From: an uncultured Gammaproteobacteria bacterium
GTDB lineage: Bacteria; Pseudomonadota; Gammaproteobacteria; Steroidobacterales; BM003
Length of the DNA stretch: 64,000 nt
Reading direction: 5' to 3'
NCBI GenBank assembly: GCA_963699835.1
Contig: CAVOVJ010000012.1
Span: forward strand, 33,744 to 97,743
The stretch's first letter is position 1; each line of letters starts with the position of its first letter. Below are positions 16,251 through 50,666 of the stretch, piece by piece. Made by a program: the position numbers and the translations under genes. Under the pieces are notes generated by a model that saw only the letters and a list, made by a program, of their open reading frames with translations, was not told where the DNA came from and ran no database searches.

Positions 16251-17324
16251 TCAGGAAAGCAGCCCGTCGTGCTGGTCTTGCGACCAGATCCGCCAGGTAA
16301 CCGCGGCGAGTAACGCGCCGACCGGCCCCAGAAGAATGCCAAAGTGGAGCAGCCCCTGGATCAGATCGCGCCGATCAAACAGCAAAAAAATCACTGCTAC
16401 GAGCAGTAATTGCAGCGCCCAGCCGGCCGCGGCGCTGCGCAGGGTTTCGCGACTCGGCCCTGCCAGCGTGCTGATAATCGCGCCGATCAGACCCCAGCAT
16501 AATGCAATCACCAGCGCTGCCACGCTGGTCGCGAGCGGCTCATAAGGCGGAAATTCACGTATTGCCGCATAGGCATAGGTCGTTGCATGGGTCGCGACGA
16601 ATCCGGCCGCCGCCGCGGCTGTCGCAACCTTAATCGCAACAGGCAGCAGATGGCGCACCGGTGCCGCCCAGTCATCCGCGTCATCGTTTTCGTCTGCTTC
16701 CGCCGCAGACTCATCCGCACCAGGTTCGGGCTCCGAATCCTCCTCGATCAAAATCGCCCGAGCGGATGTCTCCGGATCGACACTGCCCTGCGCCAGCAAG
16801 GCGTCGCGGCGCTCGTCGAGTTCTCGGGCAAGCCGCGCGCGATTGATTTCATTCAGTTGCGCTTCGATCCCGCGGACCAGTTGCTCCGTGTCGGGTCCGA
16901 AACCGACGTGGCTGATGCGGGCTCCATGGCGCCGTGCGAGCGCGCCCAGATCCTTGGGTAGTTCGTCTTCGCGCGGCGCATTTGCCCCTTCCACGAAAAC
17001 CGGAATGATAGGTATATTGCGCTTCAGTGCCGCGAGTATTTCCAGTCTCACATAGTCTTTCGGGTCGTCGAGTCGGCGCTGGCCCTTGGCGTCTTTTGCC
17101 GTTAGCCAGTCCGGACCGATCACGACCAGCATCAGGTCGCAGGCACTGACGGATTCCTCGATTTTCTCGACAAAATCGGTACCGAGCGGAATCGCATCGA
17201 TATCGAAAAAGATGTCTTTCTCATTGAATTTATCGCACAGCCGGTCATGGATGCGACCGGTTGCATGCGAGGCGTCCGCGCGTCGGTAGCTCAGAAAAAT
17301 GCGCCCACTCATCGTTGCGCCCAC
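16251..17324 (-). CDS. TIR domain protein with acidic linker and four C-terminal transmembrane helices
   Basis: N-terminal ~140 aa: IFLSYRRADASH..., DIFFDIDAIPLGTDF, CDLMLVVIGPDWL, conserved Glu in DYVRLEILAAL, IPIIPVFV (TIR_2-like pattern). Then EEDSEPEPGADESAAEADENDDADDW, then 4 hydrophobic helices. Start may be the ATG at 17312. Confidence 0.8.
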   Translation of the reverse strand: MGATMSGRIFLSYRRADASHATGRIHDRLCDKFNEKDIFFDIDAIPLGTDFVEKIEESVSACDLMLVVIGPDWLTAKDAKGQRRLDDPKDYVRLEILAALKRNIPIIPVFVEGANAPREDELPKDLGALARRHGARISHVGFGPDTEQLVRGIEAQLNEINRARLARELDERRDALLAQGSVDPETSARAILIEEDSEPEPGADESAAEADENDDADDWAAPVRHLLPVAIKVATAAAAAGFVATHATTYAYAAIREFPPYEPLATSVAALVIALCWGLIGAIISTLAGPSRETLRSAAAGWALQLLLVAVIFLLFDRRDLIQGLLHFGILLGPVGALLAAVTWRIWSQDQHDGLLS

Positions 17325-17770
17325 CGCTGCTGATTTCGCCGGCTAGTGGCCGCGCGACGGCCATCCAGTTCTGTCCCGTGGTCCCGATCACGCATGGAAT
17401 TCCGATTTCCCGTGCGGCCTGCATCTATTTGCGGGTTTAAAAATAAGCCCCAGGTCTATGTTTCGTAAAGCCCCGCGAACTGATTTCGGCGGAATGAACA
17501 GTACCCGGATACACTTTCTGATGTCTCAGGAATGAGTTTGCCTGGATTGCGAAAGGCGCCAAGCGACTGAATTTTTGGGTGAGTAGCGCTGGTGAGAATC
17601 GGTGCCGGCGACAGCGCGCCAGAGCTCAATCGCCACTATCGCGGCAGCGCGCCTACTCAGGCATAGCGCAATGCCGGACAATTCCGTAAAATGCCGCCCT
17701 CTTCCCTGAGAGAGGTGCCGGAATCGCGTTGTGACGCGCCGTATTCGGGTGCGAAGGGGACTTCCCCGGG

Positions 17771-17846
17771 GGGCCGTTAGCTCAGTTGGTAGAGCAGCTG
17801 GCTTTTAACCAGTTGGTCGTAGGTTCGAATCCTACACGGCCCACCA
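17771..17846 (+). tRNA. tRNA-Lys (anticodon UUU)
   Basis: 76-nt cloverleaf folded by hand. Acceptor GGGCCGT/ACGGCCC, D arm GCTC/GAGC, anticodon stem GCTGG/CCAGT with loop CTTTTAA, T arm GTAGG-TTCGAAT-CCTAC, encoded CCA. Confidence 0.95.
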
Positions 17847-18301: not shown

Positions 18302-18817
18302 TCAATGCTCGAGTGATATCGCGAAAAGCATGGGCCGTTCGTCTTCGAAATCCACGTCGGAGCAAAATTTCTTACCCAACTTTGTCGCGACGTTGACCGA
18401 CGCGTCATTGCCGTCGAGGATCAGCGCGGCGATTTTGTCGAGCCCGAGCGCTTCGCCCGCATGGGCGAGGTTCGCGGCACCGGCCTCGGTCGCATATCCC
18501 TTGCCCCAATGCCGCTCCTTGTAGCGGTAGCCGAGTTCGTCCATGCCAATTTGGGGCAGGTGCTTAATACCGCTGAATCCGATCACTTCGCCGGTGCTTT
18601 TCTATACCACTGCGAGGCGGCCATAGCCGTAATTTTCATAATCGGCGAACGTTGCTTCGCGCATGCAGCGACGCGCCTCTTTGAGATCGTGAAAGGGTTG
18701 CGGTTGCGCAAAACGGATGACATCCGGGTCGCTACCGAGTTCGTAAAAGTCCGCGCTATCGTTGGGAGTGAAGCGGTGCAACAGAAGACGTTCGGTTTCA
18801 ATCCCTGTCGCCGTCAT
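18302..18817 (-). pseudogene. GNAT (RimJ/RimL-like) N-acetyltransferase interrupted by an in-frame TAG at 18602-18604
   Basis: The two ORF-track pieces (18602-18880 and 18302-18586) are in the same frame. Read-through gives ...YGYGRLAVV*KSTGEVIGFSGIKHL...ELGYRYKERHWGKGYATEA. A Glu codon (GAG) would fit the family at the stop position. Confidence 0.75.
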
Positions 18818-18937
18818 TTCTCTCGCCGGTGATTGCAAAGCGGTGTGGCCAAGGTCCGTTTCCGTGTGTCCAGCACCCAACCAGGCCGCGGCCAGGCACT
18901 GCTGAGGACAAGGCCCGGCATGCTCGCGGTGCGCTGG

Positions 18938-20098
18938 TCAGCCACAAAATTCCTCGTAATCCATGTAGCCGGGAAATTCGCCATGCCCCGAGCAATACCG
19001 GCAGCTCGGGTCGGGCCGGATACGATGGGTCGTAAACCGTGTCTGGAGCGCGTCGTAGTGGAGCAGCCGTGATGTCAGCGGGTCGCCGAGCCCAAGCAAC
19101 AACTTCAGCGTTTCCGTTGCCTGCAGCAGGCCGATGACCCCGGGTAGGACTCCCAGCACGCCAGCTTCGCCACAACTCGGGGCGAGTTCCGGCGGAGGCG
19201 GTTGCGGATAGAGGCAGCGATAGCAGGGAGTGGGTGCGCCCGGTTGCGCAGGCCAGAACACTGATGCCTGGCCTTCGAAGCGGAATACGGATCCATAAAC
19301 GTTCGGCAGCCCGAGTCGGACGCAAGCGTCGTTGATCAGATAGCGGGTAGGGAAATTGTCGCTCCCATCCACAATGACATCGTGACCCGCAAAGAGGTCC
19401 TCGACATTTTCGCTGACGAGTTTCTTGCCAACGGCATTGACCCGGACATCAGGATTGAGCGCCCTGAGACGTGCCCTTGCTGCTTCCGTTTTGGGTATCC
19501 CGGTGTTTGAGTCCGAATAAAGGACCTGGCGTTGCAGATTGCTGCGATCAACCACGTCGTGGTCGACCAGCGTCAGTGTGCCGACCCCGGCCGCAGCCAG
19601 GTACAGCGCGACCGGCGATCCCAATCCGCCGGCGCCGGCAATCAGGACGCGGCTGCGCAACAACGTGTTTTGCCCATCCAGTCCGATCTCCGGCAATAAC
19701 AGGTGGCGTGCGTAACGCTGACGCTCATTCGCGCCCAAGCTGACCGGGACATCGATGGGAAGTTGTTCGGATTTCCAGCGCAGGAATCCGCCCGCAACAG
19801 AACGAACGTCGCGGTATCCGACATTCAGCAGGTTGTCCGCTGCCAGCAGAGAGCGCACTCCGCTGTTACACAGCAGGAGAACGGTTGCATCGAGATCGGG
19901 CGCATGATCCTCGATATGGAGTTCGAGCCGATCGCGGTTCAGCAGTGCGGCCCCCGCAGGTATGCCCATGGCGGTTTCTTCCGCTGTGCGGATGTCGATC
20001 AGTACGGCGCCGCTGCTGTGCAAAGCCTTTGCTGCGGACGGAGAGACTTCGACAATCTTCTCTCTGAGGCGCGCCAGCGTGGTGTCCTTAAGGCTCAT
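18938..20098 (-). CDS. rhodanese::ThiF/MoeB-type adenylyltransferase (E1-like sulfurtransferase), rhodanese N-terminal
   Basis: N-terminal rhodanese with active-site loop LLLCNSGVRS. E1 core RYARHLLLPEIG...IAGAGGLGSPVALYLAAAGVG...DRSNLQRQ. Zinc pairs CYRC and CRYC. Start overlaps the upstream stop (ATGA). Confidence 0.85.
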   Translation of the reverse strand: MSLKDTTLARLREKIVEVSPSAAKALHSSGAVLIDIRTAEETAMGIPAGAALLNRDRLELHIEDHAPDLDATVLLLCNSGVRSLLAADNLLNVGYRDVRSVAGGFLRWKSEQLPIDVPVSLGANERQRYARHLLLPEIGLDGQNTLLRSRVLIAGAGGLGSPVALYLAAAGVGTLTLVDHDVVDRSNLQRQVLYSDSNTGIPKTEAARARLRALNPDVRVNAVGKKLVSENVEDLFAGHDVIVDGSDNFPTRYLINDACVRLGLPNVYGSVFRFEGQASVFWPAQPGAPTPCYRCLYPQPPPPELAPSCGEAGVLGVLPGVIGLLQATETLKLLLGLGDPLTSRLLHYDALQTRFTTHRIRPDPSCRYCSGHGEFPGYMDYEEFCG

Positions 20099-20379
20099 GA
20101 CCGGCCTCCCGCCACGGCTGGAATAATCGTTATGATATCCCCGTCAGCGAGCGCGGTTGCCAGCCCTTCGGCATCGCGGATATTTGTTTCGCCGACGAAC
20201 ATGTTCACATAGGTCCGGATCGCGCCGTTGTGATCGACAATGCGTTGGCCCAGGAGCGGAAACCTTTGCGATAGCAGCTCGATTACTGCTCCGACACTTG
20301 CGGCCTGCAAATCGAGTTCGGGCAGTCCGTCGGCAAACTCGCGCAGCGCCGCTGGAATTCGAAGAGTGACAGTTGTCAT
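20095..20379 (-). CDS. MoaD/ThiS-family ubiquitin-like sulfur carrier with C-terminal GG-RS extension
   Basis: 95 aa from MTTVTLRIPAALREF..., ends ...GDIITIIPAVAGGRS. ATGA overlaps on both sides. The longer ORF-track start at 20475 lies inside the JAMM gene and is rejected. Confidence 0.8.
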   Translation of the reverse strand: MTTVTLRIPAALREFADGLPELDLQAASVGAVIELLSQRFPLLGQRIVDHNGAIRTYVNMFVGETNIRDAEGLATALADGDIITIIPAVAGGRS

Positions 20380-20813
20380 TGGCTCAGGTTGTCCTCGATC
20401 ATTTTGCCATCCACGAAACGCCAGGCGGCAAAGTCCAACATACCGTCGCTGCCGGGCCCGGCGATCAGATAGCACCAGTCAGGCCAGGCGAGCTCACGAT
20501 CGGTTGCGGAGGGCAGTATCGGGCCATGTGGATGCGAATGCCAGACACCGATGACCTCCTCGTTACGCGTTCGCGCTTCGTTTTCGACGCGAAGAAAATC
20601 GAGCGGGTCGATCTCATAATAACTGCGCGGATCGTCGCGAGTGCAATTTTCAAGGGTGAGTACGGCGTTGACCGTGGCGCGCCCCGGGTGGCGCATGCCG
20701 AGCAGCAGGCCGCACGCTTCGTTTGGCTGCATTGCGGATACCGTTGACCCGATTGAGCGGCGCAGTGAGTCACGAAGGGTAATGGTTATCGATTCGAATC
20801 GGGTCGCTGTCAT
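20376..20813 (-). CDS. JAMM/MPN+ (Mov34) metalloprotease
   Basis: Complete JAMM signature: NEACGLLLG ... WHSHPHGPILPSATD (E, HxH, S-x2-D). 145 aa. Confidence 0.85.
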   Translation of the reverse strand: MTATRFESITITLRDSLRRSIGSTVSAMQPNEACGLLLGMRHPGRATVNAVLTLENCTRDDPRSYYEIDPLDFLRVENEARTRNEEVIGVWHSHPHGPILPSATDRELAWPDWCYLIAGPGSDGMLDFAAWRFVDGKMIEDNLSQ

Positions 20814-20832: not shown

Positions 20833-21585
20833 TCAACGGGTTACCACCGCAACGAGGGCAGACTCCCTGCGTCGCATGCTGGCAAGCACGACGCGATCGA
20901 AGCGCGTGGTCTGGTCGAGCGCAATTTCGGCAGCCTGTCGCGCCAGTTTCTCTATGGTTGCGTCGTCGACCATATTGATCAGCGGCACTACGGTCATCTC
21001 TCCGCAACCCTTTAACAGGCCGTCCGGGCTCGACAGCAGGCGCGCGACATGAACCGGGGCGATACGCTCGCCGGTCTCGAGACCGGTGATCCTGGCAGCC
21101 TGTTCAGTGCGGTGCACGATCGATTCGTCAAAGCCGCGTCCGATCGCGGCCGCTGAAACCACGGTCACAAGTGTGGTAGCGGAGGGCGGCAGGACCGGTT
21201 CGTGCTCGGCGGGCGCTTTTAGCAGGCGCATCCTGGCACCATCGGCCTTGACCAGGGTCAGGTCGAAGTCACCGAGACTGTGTATTTGCTCGATCATCCC
21301 GACTGGCACACCCGCATGGCGTCCCGGGCGGGTGCTCGGGGTCGCATAGCCGATTTTTTTCGCGTCACAGCCCGCGATCGCTGCGGTAAGCGCGGACGTC
21401 TCCGCAATGATCTCGTGCAGGCCGAGTGTGGCCGGGAAATACGTCGTGTGCGCACTCGCCGTCAGCGCGACCCGTCCCGGGTGTCGTTGCAGAAGACGGT
21501 AGAGCGTGCTCTTTTTGCCGCCCGCGCCGACTGCGCAGACGATGCCGCGGCGCGCCTCCAGCGCGTCGAGGAGATCGGGTTTCAA
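20833..21585 (-). CDS. YqeC-family protein (putative selenium-dependent Mo-hydroxylase accessory protein family)
   Basis: LLDALEARRGIVCAVGAGGKKSTLYRL P-loop-like N-terminus and ...LVKADGAR... typical of the YqeC family. TTG start overlaps the upstream stop (TTGA). Confidence 0.7.
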   Translation of the reverse strand: MKPDLLDALEARRGIVCAVGAGGKKSTLYRLLQRHPGRVALTASAHTTYFPATLGLHEIIAETSALTAAIAGCDAKKIGYATPSTRPGRHAGVPVGMIEQIHSLGDFDLTLVKADGARMRLLKAPAEHEPVLPPSATTLVTVVSAAAIGRGFDESIVHRTEQAARITGLETGERIAPVHVARLLSSPDGLLKGCGEMTVVPLINMVDDATIEKLARQAAEIALDQTTRFDRVVLASMRRRESALVAVVTR

Positions 21586-22745
21586 GCAGCGTCCCCGGCA
21601 TGCGCATCAAGTGCTTTTATGCTGAGTATTCTCGGCAGGTAACCGGCGGCAAGCTGCCAGTGATCGCCTTCGTCGCGGCTGACGAACACGTGTCCGCTGG
21701 ATGTTCCAAAATAGACGCCGCAGGGATCATTGTCGTCGCAATCGAGTGCCTCGCGAAGTACCGTGACATAGGCATGGCTCTGCGGCAGCCCCTGGTCAAG
21801 CGCCTGCCATAGCCTGCCACCATCGCGGCTGCGATAGATACGCAGCTTGCCGTCCACGGTCGTCCGCATGTGCGAACTCGATTCGGGAATCTGGAAAACA
21901 GTGTCTGCGTCGCGGCGGGAAACGCAAATCGCATAGCCGAAATCGCTTGGCAGCCCAGCGCTGATTTCCGTCCAGCCGAGGCCGCCATCGTCGCTACGAT
22001 AGGTGCCGTTGTAGCATTGCCGGTACAACCTGTCTGTGTTCATCGGATGCATCACGAGGCGGTGGATATTGTGACCTGATTGAGGATAGCGCCGCGGCAG
22101 GTTCTCTGCTCTCACTCCGTTGTTTGCCGGCTCCCAGGTCATGCCATTGTCGTTGCTACGGTATGCGCCACCAGCCGAAACCGCGGCATAAATTCTGCCG
22201 GGATTGTCCGCGGCAACGTAGACCGAGTGAACTGAAAACCCGCCACGCGCGGGCTCCCATGTTTCGCGGCTGGGGTGCTCGTTGAGACCGTTGAACGCTT
22301 GCCAGCTAAGCCCGTGATCAGTGCTCTGGAATAGTCCGGGTGGGTCGATGCCGGCCAATAGCCTGCCGTCGCGGCAGTGGGCGAGATACCAGATTCGTTT
22401 TAGCGGCGTATCGAACTTGCCCTGCGCATGATGAGGCGCCGTGGCCAGGGGTGACCAGGTCGCGCCGCGATCGCCGCTGCGGTAGACATGTGCGCCCCAG
22501 ATGGTATGACTCGCGGCCGCGTAAAGGGTATCGGGATCGTTGGCATCCGCGCAGGTGTGCAGAATTTCATAGCCGGCGATGTGCGGACCGTCGATTCCCC
22601 AGCCGGTACCTTTCGTCGGCGCGTGCAACCGGAACAGGCCCTTCCGCGTACCCACCAGCAGCATTACCGTACCCGGGGAAGCGGAGCGCGCTACCATGGG
22701 GCGCTCGGTCGTTGTCTGCCAAGCCGGTTCACGCTCAGGTTTCAA
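21582..22745 (-). CDS. BNR/Asp-box beta-propeller protein (sialidase-like fold), no signal peptide
   Basis: Six Asp-boxes: SGDRGATW, STDHGLSW, SNDNGMTW, SDDGGLGW, SRDGGRLW, SRDEGDHW. Start uncertain: TTG 22745, ATG 22697 or ATG 22664 (MLLVGTRKGLF). Confidence 0.75.
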   Translation of the reverse strand: MKPEREPAWQTTTERPMVARSASPGTVMLLVGTRKGLFRLHAPTKGTGWGIDGPHIAGYEILHTCADANDPDTLYAAASHTIWGAHVYRSGDRGATWSPLATAPHHAQGKFDTPLKRIWYLAHCRDGRLLAGIDPPGLFQSTDHGLSWQAFNGLNEHPSRETWEPARGGFSVHSVYVAADNPGRIYAAVSAGGAYRSNDNGMTWEPANNGVRAENLPRRYPQSGHNIHRLVMHPMNTDRLYRQCYNGTYRSDDGGLGWTEISAGLPSDFGYAICVSRRDADTVFQIPESSSHMRTTVDGKLRIYRSRDGGRLWQALDQGLPQSHAYVTVLREALDCDDNDPCGVYFGTSSGHVFVSRDEGDHWQLAAGYLPRILSIKALDAHAGDAA

Positions 22746-23318: not shown

Positions 23319-24593
23319 TCAGACGAGCCCGGCGAAAGGTTGAACGGTGACTGTTGATCCGGCGGGCACGCGCTCTTGCTCGATCGGCAAGACGATAAAG
23401 CAATTCGCCTCGGCCATCGATCGCAGGACGCCAGCTCCCTGGTGGTCGGAGCCTCTCACGACGTAATGACCATCATTGGCCCGCGTCAGAATGCCACGCT
23501 GAAACTCGAGACGCCCTGCTTTCTTGCGCAGTCCTGTTTCGCAGACAGCCTTGATGTAGATCGGTGGATCGATTGCATCCAGACCCATCAACGCTTGCAG
23601 CGCCGGTTGAACCACTTGGTAGAATGTTGCCATAACCGATACCGGGTTGCCCGGCAGCCCGAAGAACAGTGCCTTGCCTACTCGGCCGAACGCGACCGGT
23701 CGCCCCGGTTTCATCGCGATTTTCCAAAAATCGACAGTGCCGACCCGGGCCAGCGTATCCGTGACGAAATCTGCCTCACCGACGGAGACGCCGCCGGACG
23801 TTATGATCGCATCGGCGACCTGCGACGCGTCGAGAAATGCCTGTTCGACATCTTCGCGCCGGTCGCGAATGACACCCATGTCCAGCACCGGCAACCCGAT
23901 GCGCTTGAGCATGCCGAACAGCGTGTACCGGTTGCTGTCGTAAATCTGGCCATCCTCCAGTGTCTCGCCGATCCCGCGCAACTCGTCGCCGGTTGAGAAA
24001 AACGCGATGACCGGCAGACGTCTTACCCTGACTTCGCCGATGCCGAGCGACGCGATCAGGCCGAGGTGGGCGGAGCGCAATCGAGACCCGGCAGCAAGGG
24101 CGACATCTCCGGCGCTGATATCCTCGCCGGCGGGACGCACATGCTGACCGACCTTGTTGTCCGGCCCAATAGTGGCGCTGTCGCCCTCGCGGATCACATG
24201 CTCCTGGATGACGACGGTATCGCAGCCGGCGGGTAACGGTGCCCCTGTCATGATGCGCACGCACTGACCCGGCGCCACGGCCCCGGCAAACGGCCGTCCC
24301 GCCCATGCCGTACCCATCACGGTATAGCTGCGGGCACGGTCCTGTGGCAGGTCGCTACCGGCAAGCGCGTAACCGTCCATTGCCGAATTGGTGTGTGGAG
24401 GTACATCTACCGTCGAGACGACGTCTTGCGCGAGCACCCGGCCAAGCGCGCTGCGCAAGGCAAGTGTCTCGGCTCCCGCTACGGGAGTGATCGAAGCGCG
24501 AATACGCGCGACGGCATCATCCAGAGACAGCGCTTCGCTGTCGTGCGGATCCATGCAGCTCGGCGCATGAATCCCGGTTTCGGCGCGGCTCAT
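23319..24593 (-). CDS. moeA: molybdopterin molybdenumtransferase MoeA
   Basis: ...PHTNSAMDGYA..., ...ITSGGVSVGEADF..., FGLPGNPVS. 424 aa. Overlaps mobA by 4 nt. Confidence 0.95.
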   Translation of the reverse strand: MSRAETGIHAPSCMDPHDSEALSLDDAVARIRASITPVAGAETLALRSALGRVLAQDVVSTVDVPPHTNSAMDGYALAGSDLPQDRARSYTVMGTAWAGRPFAGAVAPGQCVRIMTGAPLPAGCDTVVIQEHVIREGDSATIGPDNKVGQHVRPAGEDISAGDVALAAGSRLRSAHLGLIASLGIGEVRVRRLPVIAFFSTGDELRGIGETLEDGQIYDSNRYTLFGMLKRIGLPVLDMGVIRDRREDVEQAFLDASQVADAIITSGGVSVGEADFVTDTLARVGTVDFWKIAMKPGRPVAFGRVGKALFFGLPGNPVSVMATFYQVVQPALQALMGLDAIDPPIYIKAVCETGLRKKAGRLEFQRGILTRANDGHYVVRGSDHQGAGVLRSMAEANCFIVLPIEQERVPAGSTVTVQPFAGLV

Positions 24594-25220
24594 TTTCCGG
24601 TCTCCACTGTGTGCTGACGATCCGTGTCTGATTCACCCAGCCTTGGTTCGAGTGCTGCCACGTCCGCCGGTTCGTTTACGTTGAGGAAATTGTCCCGGCA
24701 ATCGCTGAAGTCGGCAAGCTCCATGGTCTGGTCGGCGTACCAACGATCAATTTTACGGCCCCCGCCACCGAGATAGGTCTCGAGGCTGACCAGCAGTGAC
24801 GTATTCAGTAGCGAGAATACCGGTTGCAGACGATCGCCGTCGTGGGCGACGCAGACCTCCGCGCCATTTCGCAGGTGCGCTTGCCACAACCGTTCGGCAA
24901 GATCGGCCACGATCAACGGCGAGTCACACGGGACTGTCAGGATATGAGTGGTCTGTGCCGCCCGCATTCCGCTCGCCATGCCGGCGAGGGGGCCGAGAAA
25001 TCCGTCCTCGTGGTCCGCAATTACCGGGTAGCCGAATTCGGAATAGCGCTCGCTATTGCGGTTCGCATTGATTGCGATCGTTGCAACCTGAGGTCGTAGC
25101 GCGCTGATCGTCCACTCGACCATCGGCCGCCCTTGCAATCGGAATGAGGCCTTTGTCGACACCCCCCATCCGACGTGCCTGGCCGCCCGCCAGAACGATA
25201 CCGGTGATCCGTGTTTGCAT
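24590..25220 (-). pseudogene. mobA: molybdenum cofactor guanylyltransferase MobA, frame broken by one extra base near 25130-25146 (true lesion or sequence error)
   Basis: MQTRITGIVLAGGQARRMGGVDKGLIP is in one frame, and LQGRPMVEWTISAL...INANRN...GPLAGM...VPCDSP is in another. Span is 631 nt = 3n+1. Confidence 0.85.
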
Positions 25221-25618: not shown

Positions 25619-27004
25619 GTGGGCGACGTGTCCATGCAACAAGAAAAGACCGAAAAACTGCGGCTTATGCATGCGTCGGTGCTCGTTCTCGGCGCCACAT
25701 TGCCACAACGGCGAAGACTGGTTGCGCCGCTGTCGCGCAGGCTCGGGCTGGTCGAATGTGCCGACGATGGCGATAGTGCCATCCCGTTGATGTCGCGGTG
25801 TCGCTTCGACTTTCTTCTCGTTTTCGAAAATGGTCACCGCCGCGACTGGCTGGACTGGATCGAGTCTCTGCGTCGCGACGGCGATTTCCGGCCGGTGATT
25901 CTGTGCAGTGACAAGCTCGACCGCCCCGCAGCGGCGGCCGCAATACGCACCGGGATCGTCGATCTGCTGTCCGTCGACTGTGTTGAAAGCGATGTCGTGG
26001 CGGCCATCGAGAGGATGCAGGAGAGAGCGGCGCGCGGGGCGACCGCGCCACCCATGCAGCGAATCGTCAGCAGGGACCCCCGGCCCGATTCGCTGATTGG
26101 CGACAGCGCCGCAATGCGTGAGGTGAAACGCCTGGTTGGCAGAATAGCTCCGTTACCGGCGACCGTTCTCATCGAAGGTGAGACCGGAACCGGAAAAGAG
26201 CTGGCAGCGCGTCTGCTGCACAGCCTGAGTGGCCGCAAGGGCGCGTTCGTTCCGGTTAACTGCGGCGCCATCTCGCCGGAGTTGCTGGAAAGCGAATTGT
26301 TCGGTCATAAGAAAGGCGCGTTTACCAACGCGCATCGGGTTCGCGAGGGTTTGTTCGTAGCCGCCCGCCAGGGCACGCTGTTTCTCGATGAAGTCAGCGA
26401 AATGCCGGTTGCGCTGGAAGTCAAGTTGCTGCGCGCGCTGGAGGAGGGTGCCATCCGGCCGGTGGGCGCGGACGCGGAAACTGCGGTCGACGTAAGGATC
26501 ATCGCGTCGACGCAGCACGATCTTCCGGAGCGCGTCCGGCAAGGCCGGTTTCGCGAGGACCTTTTTTACCGGCTCAATGTGATCAATATCAAGTTGCCGC
26601 CTTTGCGCGCTCGGCATGGCGATATTGAATTACTCGCGGAGTTTTTCATGCACTCGCTCGCAGTTGAACTCGGGTTGCCTGCGGTCGCCCTGGACAAGGC
26701 GACGTTCGAACTGCTGAAGGCGCATGACTGGCCCGGAAATGTTCGCGAATTGAAGAATGTTATCGAGCGTACGCTGATGCTCGGCGAGTTCCCGAGTGGT
26801 TCGATCGGTACGCGTCGACCGGCGGAACGGCTGGCCGTGCCGGAGTACCCGATCGACTGGACCCTCGAAGAGGTCAAATGCCATCACATGCGTCGAGTGC
26901 TGGAGTCAGCCGGCGGCAACAAGTCAGCGGCGGCGCGCCTGCTGGGAATTTCGCGAAAGACGCTGGAACGCAAACTAGGGGTGACGGATACCCCCGAAAT
27001 TTGA
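25619..27004 (+). CDS. sigma-54-dependent transcriptional activator (NtrC/Fis family) with degenerate receiver domain
   Basis: AAA+ core GETGTGKELAARLLH, ESELFGHKKGAFTNA, RIIASTQHDL, C-terminal Fis HTH AAARLLGISRKTLERKL. GTG start with GAGGA RBS. N-terminal domain lacks the usual acidic pocket. Confidence 0.9.
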   Translation: MGDVSMQQEKTEKLRLMHASVLVLGATLPQRRRLVAPLSRRLGLVECADDGDSAIPLMSRCRFDFLLVFENGHRRDWLDWIESLRRDGDFRPVILCSDKLDRPAAAAAIRTGIVDLLSVDCVESDVVAAIERMQERAARGATAPPMQRIVSRDPRPDSLIGDSAAMREVKRLVGRIAPLPATVLIEGETGTGKELAARLLHSLSGRKGAFVPVNCGAISPELLESELFGHKKGAFTNAHRVREGLFVAARQGTLFLDEVSEMPVALEVKLLRALEEGAIRPVGADAETAVDVRIIASTQHDLPERVRQGRFREDLFYRLNVINIKLPPLRARHGDIELLAEFFMHSLAVELGLPAVALDKATFELLKAHDWPGNVRELKNVIERTLMLGEFPSGSIGTRRPAERLAVPEYPIDWTLEEVKCHHMRRVLESAGGNKSAAARLLGISRKTLERKLGVTDTPEI

Positions 27005-27354: not shown

Positions 27355-28491
27355 TCAGGCCGGCCAGATCAGCTTGCCGGCTTCGCTGAGATCATAGCCA
27401 CCGAGCATCCGCGCGTGGGACTGGCAGTCTTTGCCGCGGATGTGTTCGAGCAACGACTGAAACAGCGTTCTGAAGAAGATGCCGCGGTGCATGGCCAGGT
27501 CGAAAGCCTCCCAGCCGATCGGCAGAAAGTCCAGCCCGTACTCGGTGGCTGACGCGCGCACACCGACAGTGACGTTTGCGTAGCCCATCGCAATCAGCGA
27601 TGCGGCGTCGCGCTCGGAAAAGGCATGGGTGGCGATTCTGCGCGACGCCAGATCGAGATCGTATTGCGACACCAGTTCCTGCAGAAATCGTTGCGATCCG
27701 GTTCCCTGTTCGTGGGCAACCCAGCGCGTTTCGCTGGAAAACAGCCGTTGCAGCGACGCGCCGCTATTCCACACGCCCGGCGTCAAAATCAGTCCCTGCT
27801 CGCGCCGGAAAAGACGCACCAGCAGCCAGTCATTATGCTGCGGGTATTGTCGTATCAACGCGGGATGGCGCTGGTGACTTTCTTCTGCAGGGCCCCAGCT
27901 CATTCCGCACAGGTCCGCGCGCCTTCGCGCCAGCAAGGTCAACCCGAGCTGGGTCACGGTTGGAGTGAAGCTGATCAGCGCGCTGGCCTGAAACTCATTG
28001 GCGGTCCGAACAATCGCCCGGTAAAGCAAGGGATCGTCCGATCCTGCGATCAGCATCCGATCGGTGAGCAGACCACCGTGACAGGACTCAAGAATCCACT
28101 GATCGACGAGGTCTTTTGGGAATAGCCATTTCCCTGTGATTTTACTCGCGGGGATCAGGCCATCGCCAACGAGCGCATAGACTTTTTTCTCGTTTATTTG
28201 CAGATAGTGGGCTACCTGTTTGACGCTCATGAACCTGGGAGTTTGCTCGGGATCGGTGTGTTTCGCCCCCGCCGCGGCGATATCGGTCGCCAGATTATCC
28301 ACATTCTGCCCCTCCCAGGTGACATGCCTGCCGCCGCGGCACTCACTGTAAACCGCATTCGGCCTCCCCTGGCGGCAAACGATGCAAAATTCGTTCCGCT
28401 CTGCGCACCGCGCATAACAGATTGAATAGAGTTCATTCGCTCGCGGCCGGGAGGAATCCACCTGCGCTACCGTTGCGACAAAATATCCCAC
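27355..28491 (-). CDS. HTH (excisionase/MerR-like) + periplasmic-binding-protein-like domain regulator (TunR/ModE-functional analogue?)
   Basis: MSVKQVAHYLQINEKKVYALVGDGLIPASKITGKWLFPKDLVDQWI HTH followed by a PBP-like domain. The 87-aa Cys-rich N-terminal extension is uncertain; alternative ATG at 28230. Confidence 0.7.
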   Translation of the reverse strand: MGYFVATVAQVDSSRPRANELYSICYARCAERNEFCIVCRQGRPNAVYSECRGGRHVTWEGQNVDNLATDIAAAGAKHTDPEQTPRFMSVKQVAHYLQINEKKVYALVGDGLIPASKITGKWLFPKDLVDQWILESCHGGLLTDRMLIAGSDDPLLYRAIVRTANEFQASALISFTPTVTQLGLTLLARRRADLCGMSWGPAEESHQRHPALIRQYPQHNDWLLVRLFRREQGLILTPGVWNSGASLQRLFSSETRWVAHEQGTGSQRFLQELVSQYDLDLASRRIATHAFSERDAASLIAMGYANVTVGVRASATEYGLDFLPIGWEAFDLAMHRGIFFRTLFQSLLEHIRGKDCQSHARMLGGYDLSEAGKLIWPA

Positions 28492-28670
28492 TGCTGGTTC
28501 ATATGGGAGTTTTTGTCCCAGTCTCTTATCAATTTCAGCAACGCTTGGGTCCGTCTCTGTCAGTCTCCTGAATTTTGTCTAACAGTCGTGTTCAATTGCG
28601 GTACAGTACGGGGCTTCCGGGTCATAGATGGCGGAGACAGGCCGGACGATTCGTTCGCCGGCGGTATTGG

Positions 28671-29156
28671 ATGAGCGCAGATTTGACGATACCGGTGTCG
28701 GTAATCATGCGACGCCGCGAAGTAGCCGGCCAAGGATGGTGCGTGCCCAGCTGGGACGCCATCGGTGTCATTGCCGGAGAGAATCTCGGGTCCGGCGAGC
28801 CGTCGCGCCAGCTGCTGCGGGATGGGCCAGACGAGCAACAGTATCTGTGGAGTGGATACCGCCTGCGGTTCTTCCGCGATGCCTGCGAGAGCTACTGGTG
28901 TAATCTCACTGTCGATCAGCCGAGGTTGTTCGTCGTGTGCAGGCCGGGCGAGGAGGGCGGCGATCTGGAGCCTTTTATCATTACGGCCGACCAGGACGAG
29001 GCCGGGTCTGCCGTGGAGACGGATGACCAGGTTTTTGCGGTAAATATGCCGCCGCAGATTTATCATCATCTCGAGCGCTACGTCGTCGAGAACTATGAGC
29101 CGCAGCCGAAGAGAAAGCGGAAGCGAAAGAACTGGTCGGAGCGGCCGCCGTCATGA
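28671..29156 (+). CDS. DUF3305-family protein (formate dehydrogenase-region accessory)
   Basis: MSADLTIPVSVIMRRR...YRLRFFRDACESYWCNL... pattern. Overlaps the next gene by 4 nt. ATG at 28671 preferred over the ORF-track 28575. Confidence 0.65.
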   Translation: MSADLTIPVSVIMRRREVAGQGWCVPSWDAIGVIAGENLGSGEPSRQLLRDGPDEQQYLWSGYRLRFFRDACESYWCNLTVDQPRLFVVCRPGEEGGDLEPFIITADQDEAGSAVETDDQVFAVNMPPQIYHHLERYVVENYEPQPKRKRKRKNWSERPPS

Positions 29157-29725
29157 GCGAAAAGATTTCCAACCGCACCATGCCACCGGGTAGCGATGAG
29201 GAAGGGTTTCTCAGTCGCTGGTCGCGTCTGAAAAACGCGGAACGAAAAGGTGTGGTCATTGACTCCGAGCAGGATTCGTTGCCGGTACCGGCGACGGCGG
29301 AGGAGGTAATCACCGGCGCTGCCGAGGAGCCGCCGCTGACCGATGCCGATATGCCGCCGCTCGATTCGCTGACCGGCGATTCCGATATCAGCGGGTTTTT
29401 GTCGCAAGGTGTCAGCCACGGTTTGCGCCGCGCTGCTCTGCGCAAACTGTTTCATAGTCCCAAATTCAACGTCTGCGATGGTCTCGATGACTACTGCGAC
29501 GACTTCCGGAATTTTGCCCCGCTCGGCTCGACCATTACAGCCGATATGCGTCATCACATGGAGCGGCTCCTAAAAGAGCGCCTGGCGGAAACCGGCGAAG
29601 CAGAAGATCCGGTCAGCGCGCACGAGCCTGCGGTTGACCCGGAGCTCGCGGCCGCGGGAGCCACCGGTGATCCGGATACCCAGGCGGTGTTTGACGAAGA
29701 TGAAGCAGGCAAAGGTGAAGGATGA
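29153..29725 (+). CDS. DUF3306-family protein
   Basis: ...EEGFLSRWSRLK... N-terminus, acidic middle, conserved C-terminal ...FNVCDGLDDYCDDF. 4-nt overlaps on both sides. Confidence 0.6.
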   Translation: MSEKISNRTMPPGSDEEGFLSRWSRLKNAERKGVVIDSEQDSLPVPATAEEVITGAAEEPPLTDADMPPLDSLTGDSDISGFLSQGVSHGLRRAALRKLFHSPKFNVCDGLDDYCDDFRNFAPLGSTITADMRHHMERLLKERLAETGEAEDPVSAHEPAVDPELAAAGATGDPDTQAVFDEDEAGKGEG

Positions 29726-31386: not shown

Positions 31387-31410
31387 TATCGTCCGATCGA
31401 GTGGCCATTA

Positions 31411-31437
31411 TGGGACATGAGTGGAAAAAATGTCACA
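31411..31437 (+). promoter_or_regulatory. candidate upstream activator site (imperfect inverted repeat TGGGACAT-N11-ATGTCACA)
   Basis: 7 of 8 positions complementary. Centre lies ~85 bp upstream of the -24 element, a typical distance for an enhancer-binding protein. Confidence 0.3.
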
Positions 31438-31506
31438 TCACGCAAGATAATGGCACTTTAGGACGGAGTATTGGTTATTATTTATCCGTTTTTTCCTTTG
31501 AGACGT

Positions 31507-31522
31507 GGCCTGTTTTTTGCTT
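31507..31522 (+). promoter_or_regulatory. sigma-54 (-24/-12) promoter of the formate dehydrogenase operon
   Basis: TGGCCTGTTTTTTGCT versus consensus TGGCACG-N4-TTGCW. GG and GC are separated by exactly 10 nt. 31 nt upstream of the ATG at 31553, which has a GAGG RBS. Confidence 0.6.
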
Positions 31523-31552
31523 TGTTAGGTAATATGGTTACCCGAGGCATCA

Positions 31553-32215: not shown

Positions 32216-32269
32216 TCGGGCTGAGTCGATTTGATAACCCAGAGTGTGTAGTTCGGGAGGAAGAGGGAA

Positions 32270-32479: not shown

Positions 32480-32540
32480 CGGATAACAGCAAACGCGAAG
32501 CATCACCAGAAATTTCCAGCACAATTTCGAGGGAACAGCG

Positions 32541-35423: not shown

Positions 35424-35436
35424 GAGGGTATCAACC

Positions 35437-36030: not shown

Positions 36031-36086
36031 GCAAAGGGTGCGGAGCTTATGCCAACGGTCATCTCAGTAATGTCAAGGGGGCAGCA

Positions 36087-48721: not shown

Positions 48722-50666
<1,945 letters not shown>

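What the first reader, a model, noticed from the sequence alone, without database searches (positions are those of the whole stretch)
18938..20813. JAMM protease, MoaD-like Ubl with masked Gly-Gly (GG-RS) and a rhodanese::MoeB E1 with inverted domain order, translationally coupled
The three genes overlap by ATGA at 20376-20379 and 20095-20098.
- The 95-aa beta-grasp protein ends ...PAVAGGRS. The Gly-Gly that must be adenylated and thiocarboxylated is therefore capped by two residues.
- The upstream gene has a complete JAMM signature (EACG ... HSHPHGPILPSATD). It could uncap the Gly-Gly, as established for CysO/Mec+ and QbsE/QbsD.
- The E1 has GAGGLGS, two CxxC zinc pairs and an intact-looking rhodanese loop (CNSGVRS). 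Its rhodanese is N-terminal, the opposite of MoeZ/MOCS3/Uba4.

No E2-like gene is present, so a sulfur-carrier role is the default reading. However, JAMM+Ubl+E1 is also the core of bacterial ubiquitin-like conjugation modules. The target of this carrier is unknown.
Basis: partly seen in the sequence, partly recalled or inferred. Interest (0 to 1): 0.6.

Follow-up and report, generated by a model that had tools for sequence, protein, structure and literature searches.

The report
Capped sulfur carrier with trimming protease
Three overlapping genes encode a small ubiquitin-like sulfur-carrier protein whose reactive Gly-Gly end is capped by two residues, the metalloprotease that most likely trims it, and its activating enzyme; the kit is of a known kind, but here it sits in a molybdenum/tungsten-cofactor operon beside two uncharacterised partners instead of the usual cysteine synthase.

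Summary
The genes are JAMM (20376-20813), a CysO-like Ubl ending GG-RS (20095-20379) and a rhodanese::ThiF E1 (18938-20098), joined by ATGA overlaps.

The "inverted" E1 is not exotic. It is a full-length member of NCBIfam NF006444/PRK08762 "MoeB", a very large family. In about a quarter of its closest relatives the Ubl is fused in front (ThiS::rhodanese::ThiF), right after a JAMM gene. The window is a split version of that fusion, and RS is a linker remnant.

- With a JAMM adjacent, 47 of 52 Ubls are fused or tailed.
- In 52 YqeC-linked loci without JAMM, 49 end exactly at Gly-Gly.

This supports JAMM as the uncapping protease.

Related modules fall into two exclusive contexts:
- **Cysteine-synthase-linked:** the M. 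tuberculosis CysO/CysM type.
- **Cofactor-linked (the window's type):** oxyanion transporter, mobA, moeA, moaB, BNR propeller, YqeC, Ubl.

A homologous Ubl also pairs with this BNR family in Ralstonia, Burkholderia, Cupriavidus and Pseudomonas, with no Moco genes nearby.

It is a known mechanism in an undescribed context. The sulfur acceptor is unresolved. It may be a BNR/YqeC-dependent cofactor-maturation step or plain MoaD duty.

The parts
20376..20813 (-). JAMM/MPN+ metallopeptidase (145 aa; alternative start M28 gives 118 aa); predicted to remove the RS cap from the Ubl
   Evidence: Pfam PF14464 E = 9e-21. Catalytic residues E32, H92, H94, S102 and D105 are invariant in 35 orthologues. JAMM adjacency correlates with a masked Gly-Gly.
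20499..20540 (-). JAMM zinc-binding/catalytic motif HSHPHGPILPSATD (H92..D105)
   Evidence: Read directly from the sequence and conserved in alignment A1.
20095..20379 (-). CysO-like beta-grasp sulfur-carrier protein (Ubl), 94 aa, ending ...PAVAGG-RS
   Evidence: Pfam ThiS E = 1e-11. Best solved relative is M. tuberculosis CysO 3DWG_C, E = 2.8e-15, full length. It groups with YqeC-linked Ubls in the tree.
20098..20109 (-). Gly91-Gly92 followed by the two-residue cap Arg93-Ser94; the GGA-GGC codons also form the Shine-Dalgarno for the E1
   Evidence: Orthologue tails vary: RS, RL, LQ, WI, QV, R, AS or none.
18938..20098 (-). E1-like adenylyltransferase/sulfurtransferase with N-terminal rhodanese (386 aa), NCBIfam NF006444 'MoeB' family
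   Evidence: NF006444 570 bits, cut-off 449, model positions 3-383 of 387. Pfam Rhodanese 23-110 and ThiF 129-367. E. coli ThiF and MoeB structures match at E = 1e-55 to 1e-57.
19769..20032 (-). Rhodanese domain with active-site loop C77-NSGVRS (19850-19870)
   Evidence: Pfam PF00581 E = 2e-10. The Cys-x-x-G-x-R-S loop is kept in fused and split relatives.
18998..19714 (-). ThiF/MoeB adenylation domain: GAGGLGS nucleotide loop, CYRC and CRYC zinc pairs, SCGEAG crossover-loop cysteine
   Evidence: Pfam PF00899 E = 4e-82. Motif coordinates.
20833..21585 (-). YqeC-family protein (250 aa); the most constant neighbour of this Ubl subfamily
   Evidence: TIGR03172 147.6 bits, cut-off 73. The Ubl lies immediately downstream of yqeC in 55 of 69 YqeC-centred metagenome loci.
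21582..22745 (-). BNR/Asp-box beta-propeller (387 aa), homologue of PDB 3B7F; candidate partner of the Ubl
   Evidence: 3B7F E = 3.5e-68. BNR and Ubl co-occur 36/3/0/5, Fisher p = 5e-5. Ubl-BNR gene pairs occur in about 53 of 61 chromid/plasmid records.
22735..23250 (-). moaB (molybdopterin adenylyltransferase-type protein)
   Evidence: TIGR02667 264.9 bits, cut-off 222.
23319..24593 (-). moeA (molybdopterin molybdotransferase)
   Evidence: NF007960 562.8 bits, cut-off 440.
24590..25162 (-). mobA (Moco guanylyltransferase), first gene of the co-directional block mobA-moeA-moaB-BNR-yqeC-JAMM-Ubl-E1
   Evidence: TIGR02665 185.4 bits, cut-off 152. The same gene order occurs in L007, L013, L014 and L095.

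Best explanation
**Layer 1: what the three genes are (about 0.85).**
They form a protein-thiocarboxylate sulfur-transfer kit of the JAB/ThiS-MoaD/E1-rhodanese class.
- The Ubl is made with its Gly-Gly capped by Arg-Ser.
- The JAMM zinc peptidase cleaves after Gly92.
- The ThiF domain of the E1 adenylates the freed Gly92 carboxylate.
- Cys77 of the N-terminal rhodanese carries a persulfide that converts the acyl-adenylate to a C-terminal thiocarboxylate.
- The gene pair Ubl/E1 is a split form of a widespread single polypeptide, Ubl::rhodanese::ThiF. RS is a remnant of the inter-domain linker. JAMM is the enzyme that frees the Ubl in both the fused and the split forms.

**Layer 2: what it is for here (about 0.4; inferred).**
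In this lineage the carrier does not feed a cysteine synthase. It belongs to a sister subfamily of CysO that is built into molybdenum/tungsten-pterin cofactor operons: oxyanion ABC transporter, mobA, moeA, moaB, BNR propeller, yqeC, Ubl, with or without moaA or the E1. In the window this operon lies next to a formate-dehydrogenase operon.

I propose that its thiocarboxylate delivers sulfur to a cofactor-maturation step carried out with the BNR propeller and YqeC. That step would be either a dedicated supply of dithiolene sulfur or another sulfuration of the cofactor. It would not be general cysteine synthesis.
For: **Shown by sequence**
- Intact catalytic motifs in all three proteins.
- E1 is a full-length NF006444 member.
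- The Ubl's closest solved relative is CysO.

**Fusion**
- ThiS+Rhodanese+ThiF lie on one polypeptide in Dechloromonas and Methylonatrum by Pfam, and in Inmirania.
- About 30 of the top 120 E1 homologues carry the fused ThiS domain.
- The fusion is collinear with the window junction.
- Fused and split forms interleave in the E1 and JAMM trees.

**JAMM as maturase**
- In JAMM-centred loci, 47 of 52 Ubls are masked: 28 fused and 19 tailed.
- In YqeC-centred loci, 49 Ubls end exactly at Gly-Gly and none of these has a JAMM. All 4 loci with both a JAMM and a Ubl detected have a masked Gly-Gly. Fisher p = 9.5e-5.

**Context**
- About 30 loci have a cysteine-synthase-like PALP gene right after the E1 and none of them has YqeC/BNR.
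- About 20 loci have YqeC/BNR and none of them has PALP. PALP is present in 0 of 80 YqeC-centred loci.
- The linkage survives inversion: YqeC-BNR are divergently transcribed in the Methylonatrum group.
- The linkage survives loss of the adjacent E1: 11 loci have the Ubl only.
- In YqeC-centred loci, BNR is adjacent in 42/48, moaB in 29/38, moeA in 22/24, and moaA follows the Ubl in a subset.

**Ubl subfamilies**
- The Ubl tree separates the CysM-linked Ubls (with both CysO references nested among them) from the YqeC-linked Ubls.
- 95 of 96 nearest neighbours belong to the same class.

**Ubl-BNR pairing**
- The pairing recurs in unrelated genomes without Moco genes.

**Precedent**
- Extra MoaD-type carriers dedicated to particular W/Mo enzymes are already proposed (PMC1779556).
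Against: - Nothing here is biochemical. Cleavage, adenylation and thiocarboxylation are inferred from homology.
- Five JAMM-adjacent Ubls (L009, L014, L033, L036, L075) already end at Gly-Gly, so JAMM may have a second job such as adduct or isopeptide hydrolysis.
- Three tailed Ubls (L098-L100) have no JAMM within 6 kb.
- Bootstrap support for the exact CysO versus YqeC-linked split is modest: 29/200 exact, and 98/200 with 3 or fewer misplaced.
- The co-occurrence statistics are not corrected for phylogeny, and metagenome loci are partly redundant.
- No acceptor chemistry is known for YqeC. A C. difficile yqeC deletion had no clear phenotype (PMC11448449). None is known for the BNR family either.
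- NCBI's curated rule names this E1 MoeB, which fits a plain MoaD/MoeB reading equally well.
- I could not search the rest of the genome for moaD, moaE or cysM.
Confidence: 0.5

Rival explanations
1. Plain Moco biosynthesis. The Ubl is simply this organism's MoaD, the small subunit of molybdopterin synthase working with a MoaE encoded elsewhere. The E1 is its MoeB. JAMM only removes a vestigial tail. YqeC and BNR are unrelated accessory genes of the operon.
For: - The module sits in a mobA-moeA-moaB operon.
- The E1 passes the curated MoeB equivalog NF006444, and NCBI names its homologues MoeB.
- Most YqeC-linked orthologues of the Ubl end at Gly-Gly and have no JAMM: 49 of 52.
- moaA directly follows the Ubl in several loci.
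- The Ubl nearly reaches the archaeal MoaD model: TIGR01687 47.2 bits against a cut-off of 49.5.
- One E1 can serve both MoaD and CysO in mycobacteria (PMC3227635, listed; abstract only).
Against: - No moaE was found within 6-10 kb of the Ubl in any of 166 loci. In bacteria moaD-moaE adjacency is the core conserved neighbourhood (PMC1779556).
- E. coli MoaD does not detect these Ubls (best E = 0.06), whereas CysO does.
- The Ubl co-occurs with the BNR propeller. It is absent from operon variants that lack BNR.
- A homologous Ubl pairs with BNR where no Moco genes are nearby. This includes P. aeruginosa, which to my knowledge has a canonical moaCDE operon.
Confidence: 0.3
2. CysO-type amino-acid thiol biosynthesis. 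The thiocarboxylate is used by a CysM-like (or MetY-like) PLP enzyme encoded elsewhere. JAMM both uncaps the carrier and hydrolyses the carrier-cysteine adduct, as Mec+ does. The position in a Moco operon reflects only the dual use of the E1.
For: - CysO is the closest solved relative.
- The sister group of modules has a cysteine-synthase-like gene directly after the E1 in about 30 loci. Its best NCBIfam hits are cysKM/cysM at 260-278 bits.
- JAMM is retained in some loci whose Ubl already ends at Gly-Gly, which suggests an adduct-hydrolase role.
Against: - PALP is absent from all of about 20 YqeC-linked JAMM loci and from all 80 YqeC-centred loci.
- JAMM-Ubl stay next to YqeC-BNR even where the E1 has moved away (11 loci), so the E1 alone does not explain the linkage.
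- Most YqeC-linked Ubls have no JAMM at all. That would leave a CysO-type adduct unresolved.
Confidence: 0.1
3. Ubiquitin-like protein conjugation or regulation, as with haloarchaeal SAMP1/UbaA/HvJAMM1. The Ubl is attached to lysines of target proteins such as a cofactor-synthesis enzyme or the BNR protein. JAMM is both the maturase and the deconjugase.
For: - The best NCBIfam hits are to the SAMP system: desampylase 79.7 bits, SAMP1 52 bits, UbaA 301.6 bits.
- SAMP1 linkage to MPT synthase, reversed by HvJAMM1, regulates Moco synthesis in Haloferax (PMC4443979, abstract).
- SAMP-type conjugation needs no E2 (my own knowledge).
- JAMM persists in some loci with an uncapped Ubl.
Against: - All three SAMP-system hits fall below their curated cut-offs of 130, 60 and 450 bits.
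- The E1 carries a rhodanese with an intact catalytic cysteine, the hallmark of sulfur transfer.
- Most orthologous Ubls have no JAMM nearby. A reversible modifier system would need one.
Confidence: 0.08

Closest known systems
CysO / Mec+ (JAMM) / CysM with MoeZ, M. tuberculosis cysteine pathway (PDB 3DWG, 3DWM)
   Same: - The Ubl aligns with CysO end to end (E = 2.8e-15), including the ...LPAVAGG terminus.
- A JAMM gene lies directly upstream of the carrier.
- The E1 combines ThiF and rhodanese domains.
- The sister clade of the window's module has the cysteine-synthase-like gene in the operon.
   Different: - M. tuberculosis CysO ends at Gly-Gly, while the window's Ubl is capped by RS.
- The rhodanese is N-terminal rather than C-terminal. 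The MoeZ model NF005902 scores 356.8 bits against a cut-off of 647.
- No cysteine synthase is linked. YqeC, a BNR propeller and Moco genes are linked instead.
QbsE/QbsD/QbsC (thioquinolobactin) and HcyS/HcyD/HcyF (Wolinella methionine pathway): carriers with C-terminal extensions removed by a JAMM protease (my own knowledge; not re-read here)
   Same: - The carrier is made with residues after the Gly-Gly.
- An adjacent JAMM metalloprotease exposes the Gly-Gly before adenylation and thiocarboxylation.
   Different: - The downstream chemistry and operon partners differ: an AMP-ligase for siderophore synthesis, or MetY.
- Those E1s have a C-terminal rhodanese or none (PMC1779556).
NCBIfam NF006444 / PRK08762 'molybdopterin-synthase adenylyltransferase MoeB'
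   Same: - The window's E1 matches the whole model (positions 3-383 of 387) at 570 bits, above the 449-bit cut-off.
- The family therefore already includes the N-terminal rhodanese.
- The fused Inmirania protein matches at 627 bits.
   Different: - The family name asserts a MoeB role. I found no experimental paper on it in the held library.
- Many members are fused to a ThiS domain and are flanked by JAMM and a cysteine-synthase-like gene, which the name does not convey.
JAB + ThiS/MoaD + E1-rhodanese operons of Iyer, Burroughs and Aravind 2006 (PMC1779556, Table 1 rows 4b and 4c)
   Same: - The same three-gene core.
- Row 4c adds a cysteine synthase.
- Row 4b includes Alkalilimnicola (Ectothiorhodospiraceae), the same broad group as many YqeC-linked loci.
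   Different: - The paper describes a C-terminal rhodanese.
- It states that these operons contain no cofactor-pathway genes.
- It does not mention the Ubl::rhodanese::E1 fusion, YqeC or the BNR propeller.
AOR-linked extra MoaD genes for tungsten cofactor (PMC1779556, section 11)
   Same: - A second MoaD-type carrier, sometimes with MoeB, is dedicated to supplying a particular W/Mo enzyme.
- In Haloferax, YqeC itself sits next to an AOR gene.
   Different: - Those carriers are adjacent to AOR.
- No JAMM, YqeC or BNR partner is reported for them.
SAMP1 / UbaA / HvJAMM1 of Haloferax volcanii
   Same: - It consists of a MoaD-like Ubl, a JAMM and an E1, with a documented link to molybdopterin synthase (PMC4443979).
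- It gives the best-scoring NCBIfam names for the window's JAMM and Ubl.
   Different: - All scores fall below the curated cut-offs.
- UbaA has no rhodanese.
- SAMP1 is not capped (my own knowledge).

Membership tests
JAMM/MPN+ metallopeptidase (Pfam Prok-JAB PF14464) | Score above the Pfam gathering threshold | tested here: met
   74.3 bits against 25.
JAMM/MPN+ metallopeptidase (Pfam Prok-JAB PF14464) | Catalytic motif E ... H-x-H-x7-S-x2-D | tested here: met
   E32, H92, H94, S102 and D105 are present and invariant in 35 orthologues.
JAMM/MPN+ metallopeptidase (Pfam Prok-JAB PF14464) | Peptidase activity on the Ubl C-terminus | not testable with these tools
   There is only comparative support: a masked Gly-Gly co-occurs with JAMM.
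Desampylase (NCBIfam NF041370, equivalog) | Score above the curated cut-off | tested here: not met
   79.7 bits against 130.
ThiS/MoaD beta-grasp sulfur carriers (PF02597) | Score above gathering threshold and a C-terminal Gly-Gly | tested here: met
   45.5 bits against 22.5. Gly91-Gly92 are present but followed by Arg-Ser.
CysO-type carrier (cysteine pathway) | Closest characterised relative is CysO | tested here: met
   3DWG_C E = 2.8e-15 over the full length; next is 4N6E_B at E = 2.7e-10.
CysO-type carrier (cysteine pathway) | Operon link to a CysM-type PLP enzyme | tested here: not met
   There is no PALP gene in the window region, in about 20 YqeC-linked JAMM loci or in 80 YqeC-centred loci. 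The window's Ubl falls outside the CysM-linked half of the Ubl tree.
MoaD (molybdopterin synthase small subunit) | Match to a curated MoaD model | tested here: not met
   TIGR01687 moaD_arch 47.2 bits against a cut-off of 49.5. No bacterial moaD model was listed.
MoaD (molybdopterin synthase small subunit) | Adjacency to, or complex with, MoaE | tested here: inconclusive
   No MoaE was found within 6-10 kb in 166 loci. The probe has no positive control, and the rest of the genome could not be searched.
MoaD (molybdopterin synthase small subunit) | Location in a Moco biosynthesis operon | tested here: met
   mobA-moeA-moaB lie upstream on the same strand. moaA lies downstream in related loci.
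NF006444 / PRK08762 MoeB (rhodanese-N-terminal E1) | Full-length score above the curated cut-off | tested here: met
   570 bits against 449, model positions 3-383 of 387.
NF006444 / PRK08762 MoeB (rhodanese-N-terminal E1) | Nucleotide loop, zinc CxxC pairs and rhodanese catalytic Cys | tested here: met
   GAGGLGS, CYRC, CRYC and C77NSGVRS are all present.
NF006444 / PRK08762 MoeB (rhodanese-N-terminal E1) | Activates MoaD for MPT synthase (the function in the family name) | not testable with these tools
   No experimental paper was found in the held library.
MoeZ / MOCS3 / Uba4 (ThiF with C-terminal rhodanese) | Domain order ThiF then rhodanese, and the curated MoeZ cut-off | tested here: not met
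   The rhodanese covers residues 23-110, ahead of ThiF at 129-367. NF005902 scores 356.8 bits against 647.
Bacterial ubiquitin-like conjugation modules (E1 + E2 + JAB) | An E2/UBC-like gene or domain in the operon | tested here: not met
   No such domain appears among the Pfam/NCBIfam calls for the window genes from 18.3 to 25.2 kb or in the precomputed Pfam of syntenic loci. In those systems the E1 lacks a rhodanese (PMC1779556).
SAMP1 (NF041918, equivalog) | Score above the curated cut-off | tested here: not met
   52 bits against 60.
YqeC (TIGR03172), neighbour gene | Score above the curated cut-off | tested here: met
   147.6 bits against 73.05.
YqeC (TIGR03172), neighbour gene | Co-occurrence with SelD and YqeB (selenium-dependent hydroxylase trait) | not tested
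   None appeared among the window ORFs I annotated. Not all window genes, and not the genome, were checked.

The most novel reading that the evidence does not exclude
The CysO-like Ubl, the 3B7F-type BNR propeller and, in cofactor operons, YqeC form a previously unrecognised sulfur-insertion system.
- The Ubl thiocarboxylate is used by the propeller. Ubl-associated propellers have a His/His/His/Cys signature that could be the active site.
- In Mo/W-cofactor operons the system would perform a maturation step distinct from molybdopterin synthase, such as installing the terminal sulfido ligand needed by formate-dehydrogenase- or AOR-type cofactors.
- This would give YqeC its first biochemical context.
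- JAMM and the fused E1 are optional add-ons that appear when the carrier is made as a precursor.
Probability: 0.25. Interest if true: 0.8.

Novelty: new variant of a known kind. Interest (0 to 1): 0.5.

Why it matters
1. **Evidence for JAMM as a carrier maturase.** Carriers that are fused or tailed have a JAMM next door. Carriers ending at Gly-Gly mostly do not. This pattern holds across many natural variants.
2. **The odd E1 architecture is explained.** The N-terminal rhodanese is what is left when a widespread Ubl::rhodanese::ThiF polyprotein is split. The whole family is currently annotated simply as "MoeB".
3. **A testable lead on the carrier's target.**
   - The carrier is tied to two proteins with no known biochemistry.
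   - One is YqeC, so far known only as a marker of the selenium-dependent molybdenum-hydroxylase trait.
   - The other is a BNR propeller with a solved but unexplained structure (3B7F).
   - The Ubl-BNR pair also occurs in Ralstonia, Burkholderia, Cupriavidus and P. aeruginosa, where it can be tested genetically.

Tried and rejected
- **Homologue search with the 94-aa Ubl.** It first timed out. It then returned only 4 close hits because of the word index. I reached the family through the JAMM and the E1 instead.
- **First gene caller.** My crude GC3-based caller missed small genes. I replaced it with profile searches over six-frame ORFs (onward).
- **First E1 profile.** It was contaminated by fused proteins, so it also hit free Ubls. 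I rebuilt it from unfused E1s.
- **YqeC as a MobB-like protein.** Rejected. hhalign probability is 0.9 % and only the P-loop aligns. The YqeC sequence and profile have no significant PDB match.
- **Canonical MoaD, MoaE and FdhD near the module.** The MoaC probe served as a positive control (L093 and L143, E = 2e-48). The MoaE and FdhD probes have no control, so this is weak negative evidence.
- **Regulatory signals.** There is no Moco riboswitch or other Rfam family apart from a tRNA. Promoter and terminator scans were at or below the counts expected from shuffled sequence.
- **Diagnostic columns.** No single alignment column separates CysM-linked from YqeC-linked Ubls at 80 %/80 %.
- **Structure prediction.** I did not run it. 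Only window sequences may be submitted, and a single-sequence model of YqeC would probably be too poor to interpret.

Full report
**Observation**

Three minus-strand ORFs occupy 18938-20813, exactly as described.
- **JAMM, 20376-20813, 145 aa.** It carries E32 and H92-x-H94-x7-S102-x2-D105. These five residues are invariant in an alignment of 35 orthologues.
- **Ubl, 20095-20379, 94 aa (not 95).** It ends ...IIPAVAGG-RS.
- **E1, 18938-20098, 386 aa.** Rhodanese covers residues 23-110 and ThiF covers 129-367. It has the C77NSGVRS loop, GAGGLGS, CYRC, CRYC and an SCGEAG crossover-loop cysteine.
- **Junctions.** Both ATGA overlaps exist. The Gly-Gly codons GGA-GGC double as a GGAGG Shine-Dalgarno 6 nt before the E1 start.
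- **Source.** The sequence comes from an uncultured gammaproteobacterium. Its nearest named relatives are MAGs labelled Gammaproteobacteria and Chromatiales.

**What the proteins are**

- The E1 matches the curated NCBIfam equivalog NF006444 (PRK08762, "molybdopterin-synthase adenylyltransferase MoeB") over the whole model: 570 bits against a cut-off of 449. The N-terminal rhodanese is therefore a catalogued architecture.
- A homologue search scored 8,000 candidates and all had E <= 1e-30. The best 120 are 59-96 % identical over the full length, and where a source names them, NCBI calls them MoeB.
- The Ubl's closest solved relative is M. tuberculosis CysO (3DWG_C, E = 2.8e-15, end-to-end). 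Next is the Amycolatopsis carrier in 4N6E.
- The Ubl falls just under the cut-offs of the SAMP1 and archaeal-MoaD models. An E. coli MoaD probe does not detect it.
- The JAMM is a Prok-JAB protein. Its best curated hit is the haloarchaeal desampylase model, below that model's cut-off.

**Survey centred on the JAMM**

I used an alignment of JAMM orthologues to scan one genome per species. That gave 80 loci. Adding loci already fetched made 86, which I scored with profiles over six-frame ORFs.

*1. Fusion of the Ubl to the E1*
- In 28 loci the Ubl is fused to the front of the E1 as one ThiS::rhodanese::ThiF polypeptide directly after the JAMM gene.
- Pfam confirms the three domains in Dechloromonas and Methylonatrum, and the same holds in Inmirania.
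- About 30 of the top 120 E1 homologues have the fused ThiS domain.
- The fusion is collinear with the window. "...PAVAGG-AGGKERR-LNELR..." corresponds to "...PAVAGG-RS*" followed by "MSLKDTT-LARLR...".
- Fused and split forms interleave in the E1 and JAMM trees, so fusion or fission has happened repeatedly.
- In a fused protein the Gly-Gly is internal and must be released by proteolysis. In split forms a short, variable tail remains: R, RS, RL, QV, AS, AT, RA, AR, SAS and longer.
- Overall 47 of 52 JAMM-adjacent Ubls are masked.

*2. Two mutually exclusive contexts*
- About 30 loci have a PLP enzyme immediately after the E1. Its best NCBIfam hits are cysKM/cysM at 260-278 bits, below the cut-offs. 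In Betaproteobacteria a suf operon often lies upstream. This corresponds to rows 4b/4c of Iyer et al. 2006 (PMC1779556) and to the CysO/CysM logic.
- About 20 loci, including the window, have YqeC and a BNR propeller next to the JAMM, within mobA-moeA-moaB and transporter genes. None of these has the PLP enzyme.
- This linkage survives inversion. YqeC-BNR are divergently transcribed in the Methylonatrum group.
- It also survives loss of the adjacent E1, in 11 loci.

**Reciprocal survey centred on YqeC**

A YqeC alignment was used to scan metagenome contigs. There were 447 confirmed stretches, of which 80 loci were kept. Counts use only loci with enough flanking sequence.

| Neighbour of yqeC | Loci |
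|---|---|
| Ubl immediately downstream | 55 of 69 |
| BNR immediately upstream | 42 of 48 |
| moaB adjacent | 29 of 38 |
| moeA nearby | 22 of 24 |
| E1 adjacent | 6 of 41 |
| PLP enzyme | 0 of 80 |

- 49 Ubls end exactly at ...AVAGG and none of those has a JAMM nearby.
- All four loci with both a JAMM and a Ubl detected have a tailed (GGRS, GGQV) or fused Ubl. Fisher p = 9.5e-5.
- Three tailed Ubls have no JAMM.
- Operon variants lacking BNR also lack the Ubl: 36 loci have both, 3 have BNR only, none has the Ubl only, and 5 have neither (p = 5e-5, not phylogeny-corrected).
- The operon often begins with an ABC transporter whose binding protein is of the PBP_like_2 type. In a subset it ends with moaA.
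- In a tree of about 100 Ubls, the CysM-linked sequences, with both CysO references nested among them, separate from the YqeC-linked ones. 95 of 96 nearest neighbours are of the same class. Bootstrap support for the exact split is modest.

**The BNR partner**

- The propeller is a full-length homologue of PDB 3B7F, a structural-genomics entry named "glycosyl hydrolase, BNR repeat".
- Of 61 plasmid or chromid records that encode it, about 53 have an 89-aa MoaD/ThiS-family gene 10-150 nt upstream on the same strand. That protein ends ...VQALSGG and is homologous to the window's Ubl at E about 1e-9.
- These records come from Ralstonia, Burkholderia, Paraburkholderia, Cupriavidus, Mitsuaria, P. 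aeruginosa and the Bacteroidota member Chondrinema.
- The P. aeruginosa and Ralstonia contexts contain no Moco genes.
- Ubl-associated propellers share H80, H86, H225 and C244 (window numbering). Two Ubl-less homologues lack them (only two outgroup sequences).

**YqeC**

- A C. difficile deletion had no clear phenotype, and the protein's biochemistry is unknown (PMC11448449).
- Haloarchaeal megaplasmids carry yqeC next to an aldehyde:ferredoxin oxidoreductase gene and a Moco guanylyltransferase gene.

**Mechanism**

*Shown directly by sequence*
- The motifs, the cap, the overlaps and the family memberships.

*Inferred from homology and from the comparative pattern*
- JAMM removes Arg-Ser.
- The ThiF domain adenylates Gly92.
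- A persulfide on rhodanese Cys77 gives the thiocarboxylate.

*Inferred from context only*
- The sulfur goes to a Mo/W-cofactor-related step involving BNR and YqeC, not to cysteine.

The window also carries a formate-dehydrogenase operon 3 kb away, with DUF3305, DUF3306, a polyferredoxin, a TorD-like chaperone and FdhABC. No fdhD, moaD, moaE or moaC was found in the ORFs I checked.

The main rival is plain MoaD duty. It is favoured by the operon position, the curated E1 name and the many uncapped orthologues. It is disfavoured by the absence of moaE from every locus, by the BNR co-occurrence, and by the Ubl-BNR pairs outside Moco contexts.

**Comparison and novelty**

- *Already known or catalogued:* the kit and the uncapping idea, from the operon classes of Iyer et al. 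2006 and, from my own knowledge, from CysO/Mec+, QbsE/QbsD and HcyS/HcyD. The E1 architecture is also catalogued.
- *Not found in the held literature:*
  - the Ubl::rhodanese::ThiF polyprotein as the origin of the domain order;
  - the JAMM versus masked-Gly-Gly correlation;
  - the cofactor-operon subfamily with YqeC and BNR;
  - the Ubl-BNR gene pair.
- I therefore rate it a new variant of a known kind, of moderate interest.

**Caveats**

- All function is inferred.
- The profiles were built from the surveyed loci themselves.
- Metagenome loci are partly redundant.
- The statistics ignore phylogeny.
- The rest of the genome could not be examined.

Noticed in passing
L176 6744-8140; L179 4679-6161; L180 4520-6146; L181 7039-8501: There is a conserved two-gene unit: an 89-aa MoaD/ThiS-family protein ending ...VQALSGG, directly upstream of a 3B7F-type BNR propeller. 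It occurs in about 53 of 61 chromid/plasmid records (Ralstonia, Burkholderia, Paraburkholderia, Cupriavidus, Mitsuaria, P. aeruginosa, Chondrinema). The two contexts I inspected have no Moco genes nearby. Its function is unknown.
   Followed up: partly
window 21582-22745 (BNR residues H80, H86, H225, C244): Three histidines and one cysteine are at least 95 % conserved in 64 Ubl-associated BNR propellers. They are replaced in the two Ubl-less homologues (Rhodobacter, Streptomyces). This could be a metal or active site. The comparison rests on only two outgroup sequences.
   Followed up: partly
L175 8995-9726 (Haloferax lucentense pSVX82-1) and 23 other haloarchaeal and other plasmid records: YqeC homologues (34-41 % identity) sit on haloarchaeal megaplasmids. 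In Haloferax the gene lies between an aldehyde:ferredoxin oxidoreductase gene and a Moco guanylyltransferase gene, with fdhF about 7 kb away. YqeC therefore travels with W/Mo-pterin enzymes outside the selenium-hydroxylase context for which it is named.
   Followed up: partly
window 18302-18880 (-), stop at 18602-18604: The GNAT acetyltransferase gene just downstream of the E1 has an in-frame TAG where the orthologue in L013 has Leu (GRLAVV*KS against GRLAVVLKS). It is a pseudogene or an assembly error.
   Followed up: yes
window 48647-50666 (+): An acetyl-CoA-synthetase-like gene appears split into two overlapping ORFs. One (48647-50125) carries ACAS_N and AMP-binding, and the other (50067-50666) carries AMP-binding_C. 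This suggests a frameshift, either real or an assembly error.
   Followed up: no
window 28575-37478 (+): This is a formate-dehydrogenase island: a DUF3305-like protein (weak NCBIfam match), an ORF syntenic with DUF3306 genes, a 554-aa polyferredoxin, a TorD/DmsD-like chaperone, a 960-aa FdhA-like subunit, an FDH3-type beta subunit and a gamma subunit. Between it and the cofactor operon lie a sigma-54 activator (25619-27004), a DUF6494 gene and an HTH + PBP-like regulator (27355-28491). No fdhD was seen.
   Followed up: partly
L018, L038, L049, L051, L055, L067 (upstream of the JAMM): In Betaproteobacteria the CysM-linked JAMM/Ubl/E1 module follows directly after a complete suf-type operon: an Rrf2 regulator, SufB, SufC, SufD, SufS, NifU-like, SufT-like and a Rieske-like protein. 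This suggests that the SufS persulfide is the sulfur source for the rhodanese-E1.
   Followed up: partly
L098 (GGALNR), L099 (GGALKQ), L100 (GGSPGQAAKRS): Three YqeC-linked Ubls carry tails of 4 to 9 residues after the Gly-Gly, but no JAMM lies within the available flanks. These are exceptions to the JAMM versus masked-Gly-Gly rule.
   Followed up: no
window 16251-17846: A TIR-domain protein (16251-17324, -) and tRNA-Lys(UUU) (17771-17846, +) lie between queC and the module. In relatives this interval is variable: L007 has phage tail-collar genes there. It looks like an insertion hotspot.
   Followed up: no
L009, L014, L033, L036, L075: JAMM is retained, with intact catalytic residues, next to Ubls that already end at Gly-Gly. 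This hints at a second JAMM function such as hydrolysis of a carrier adduct or an isopeptide.
   Followed up: no
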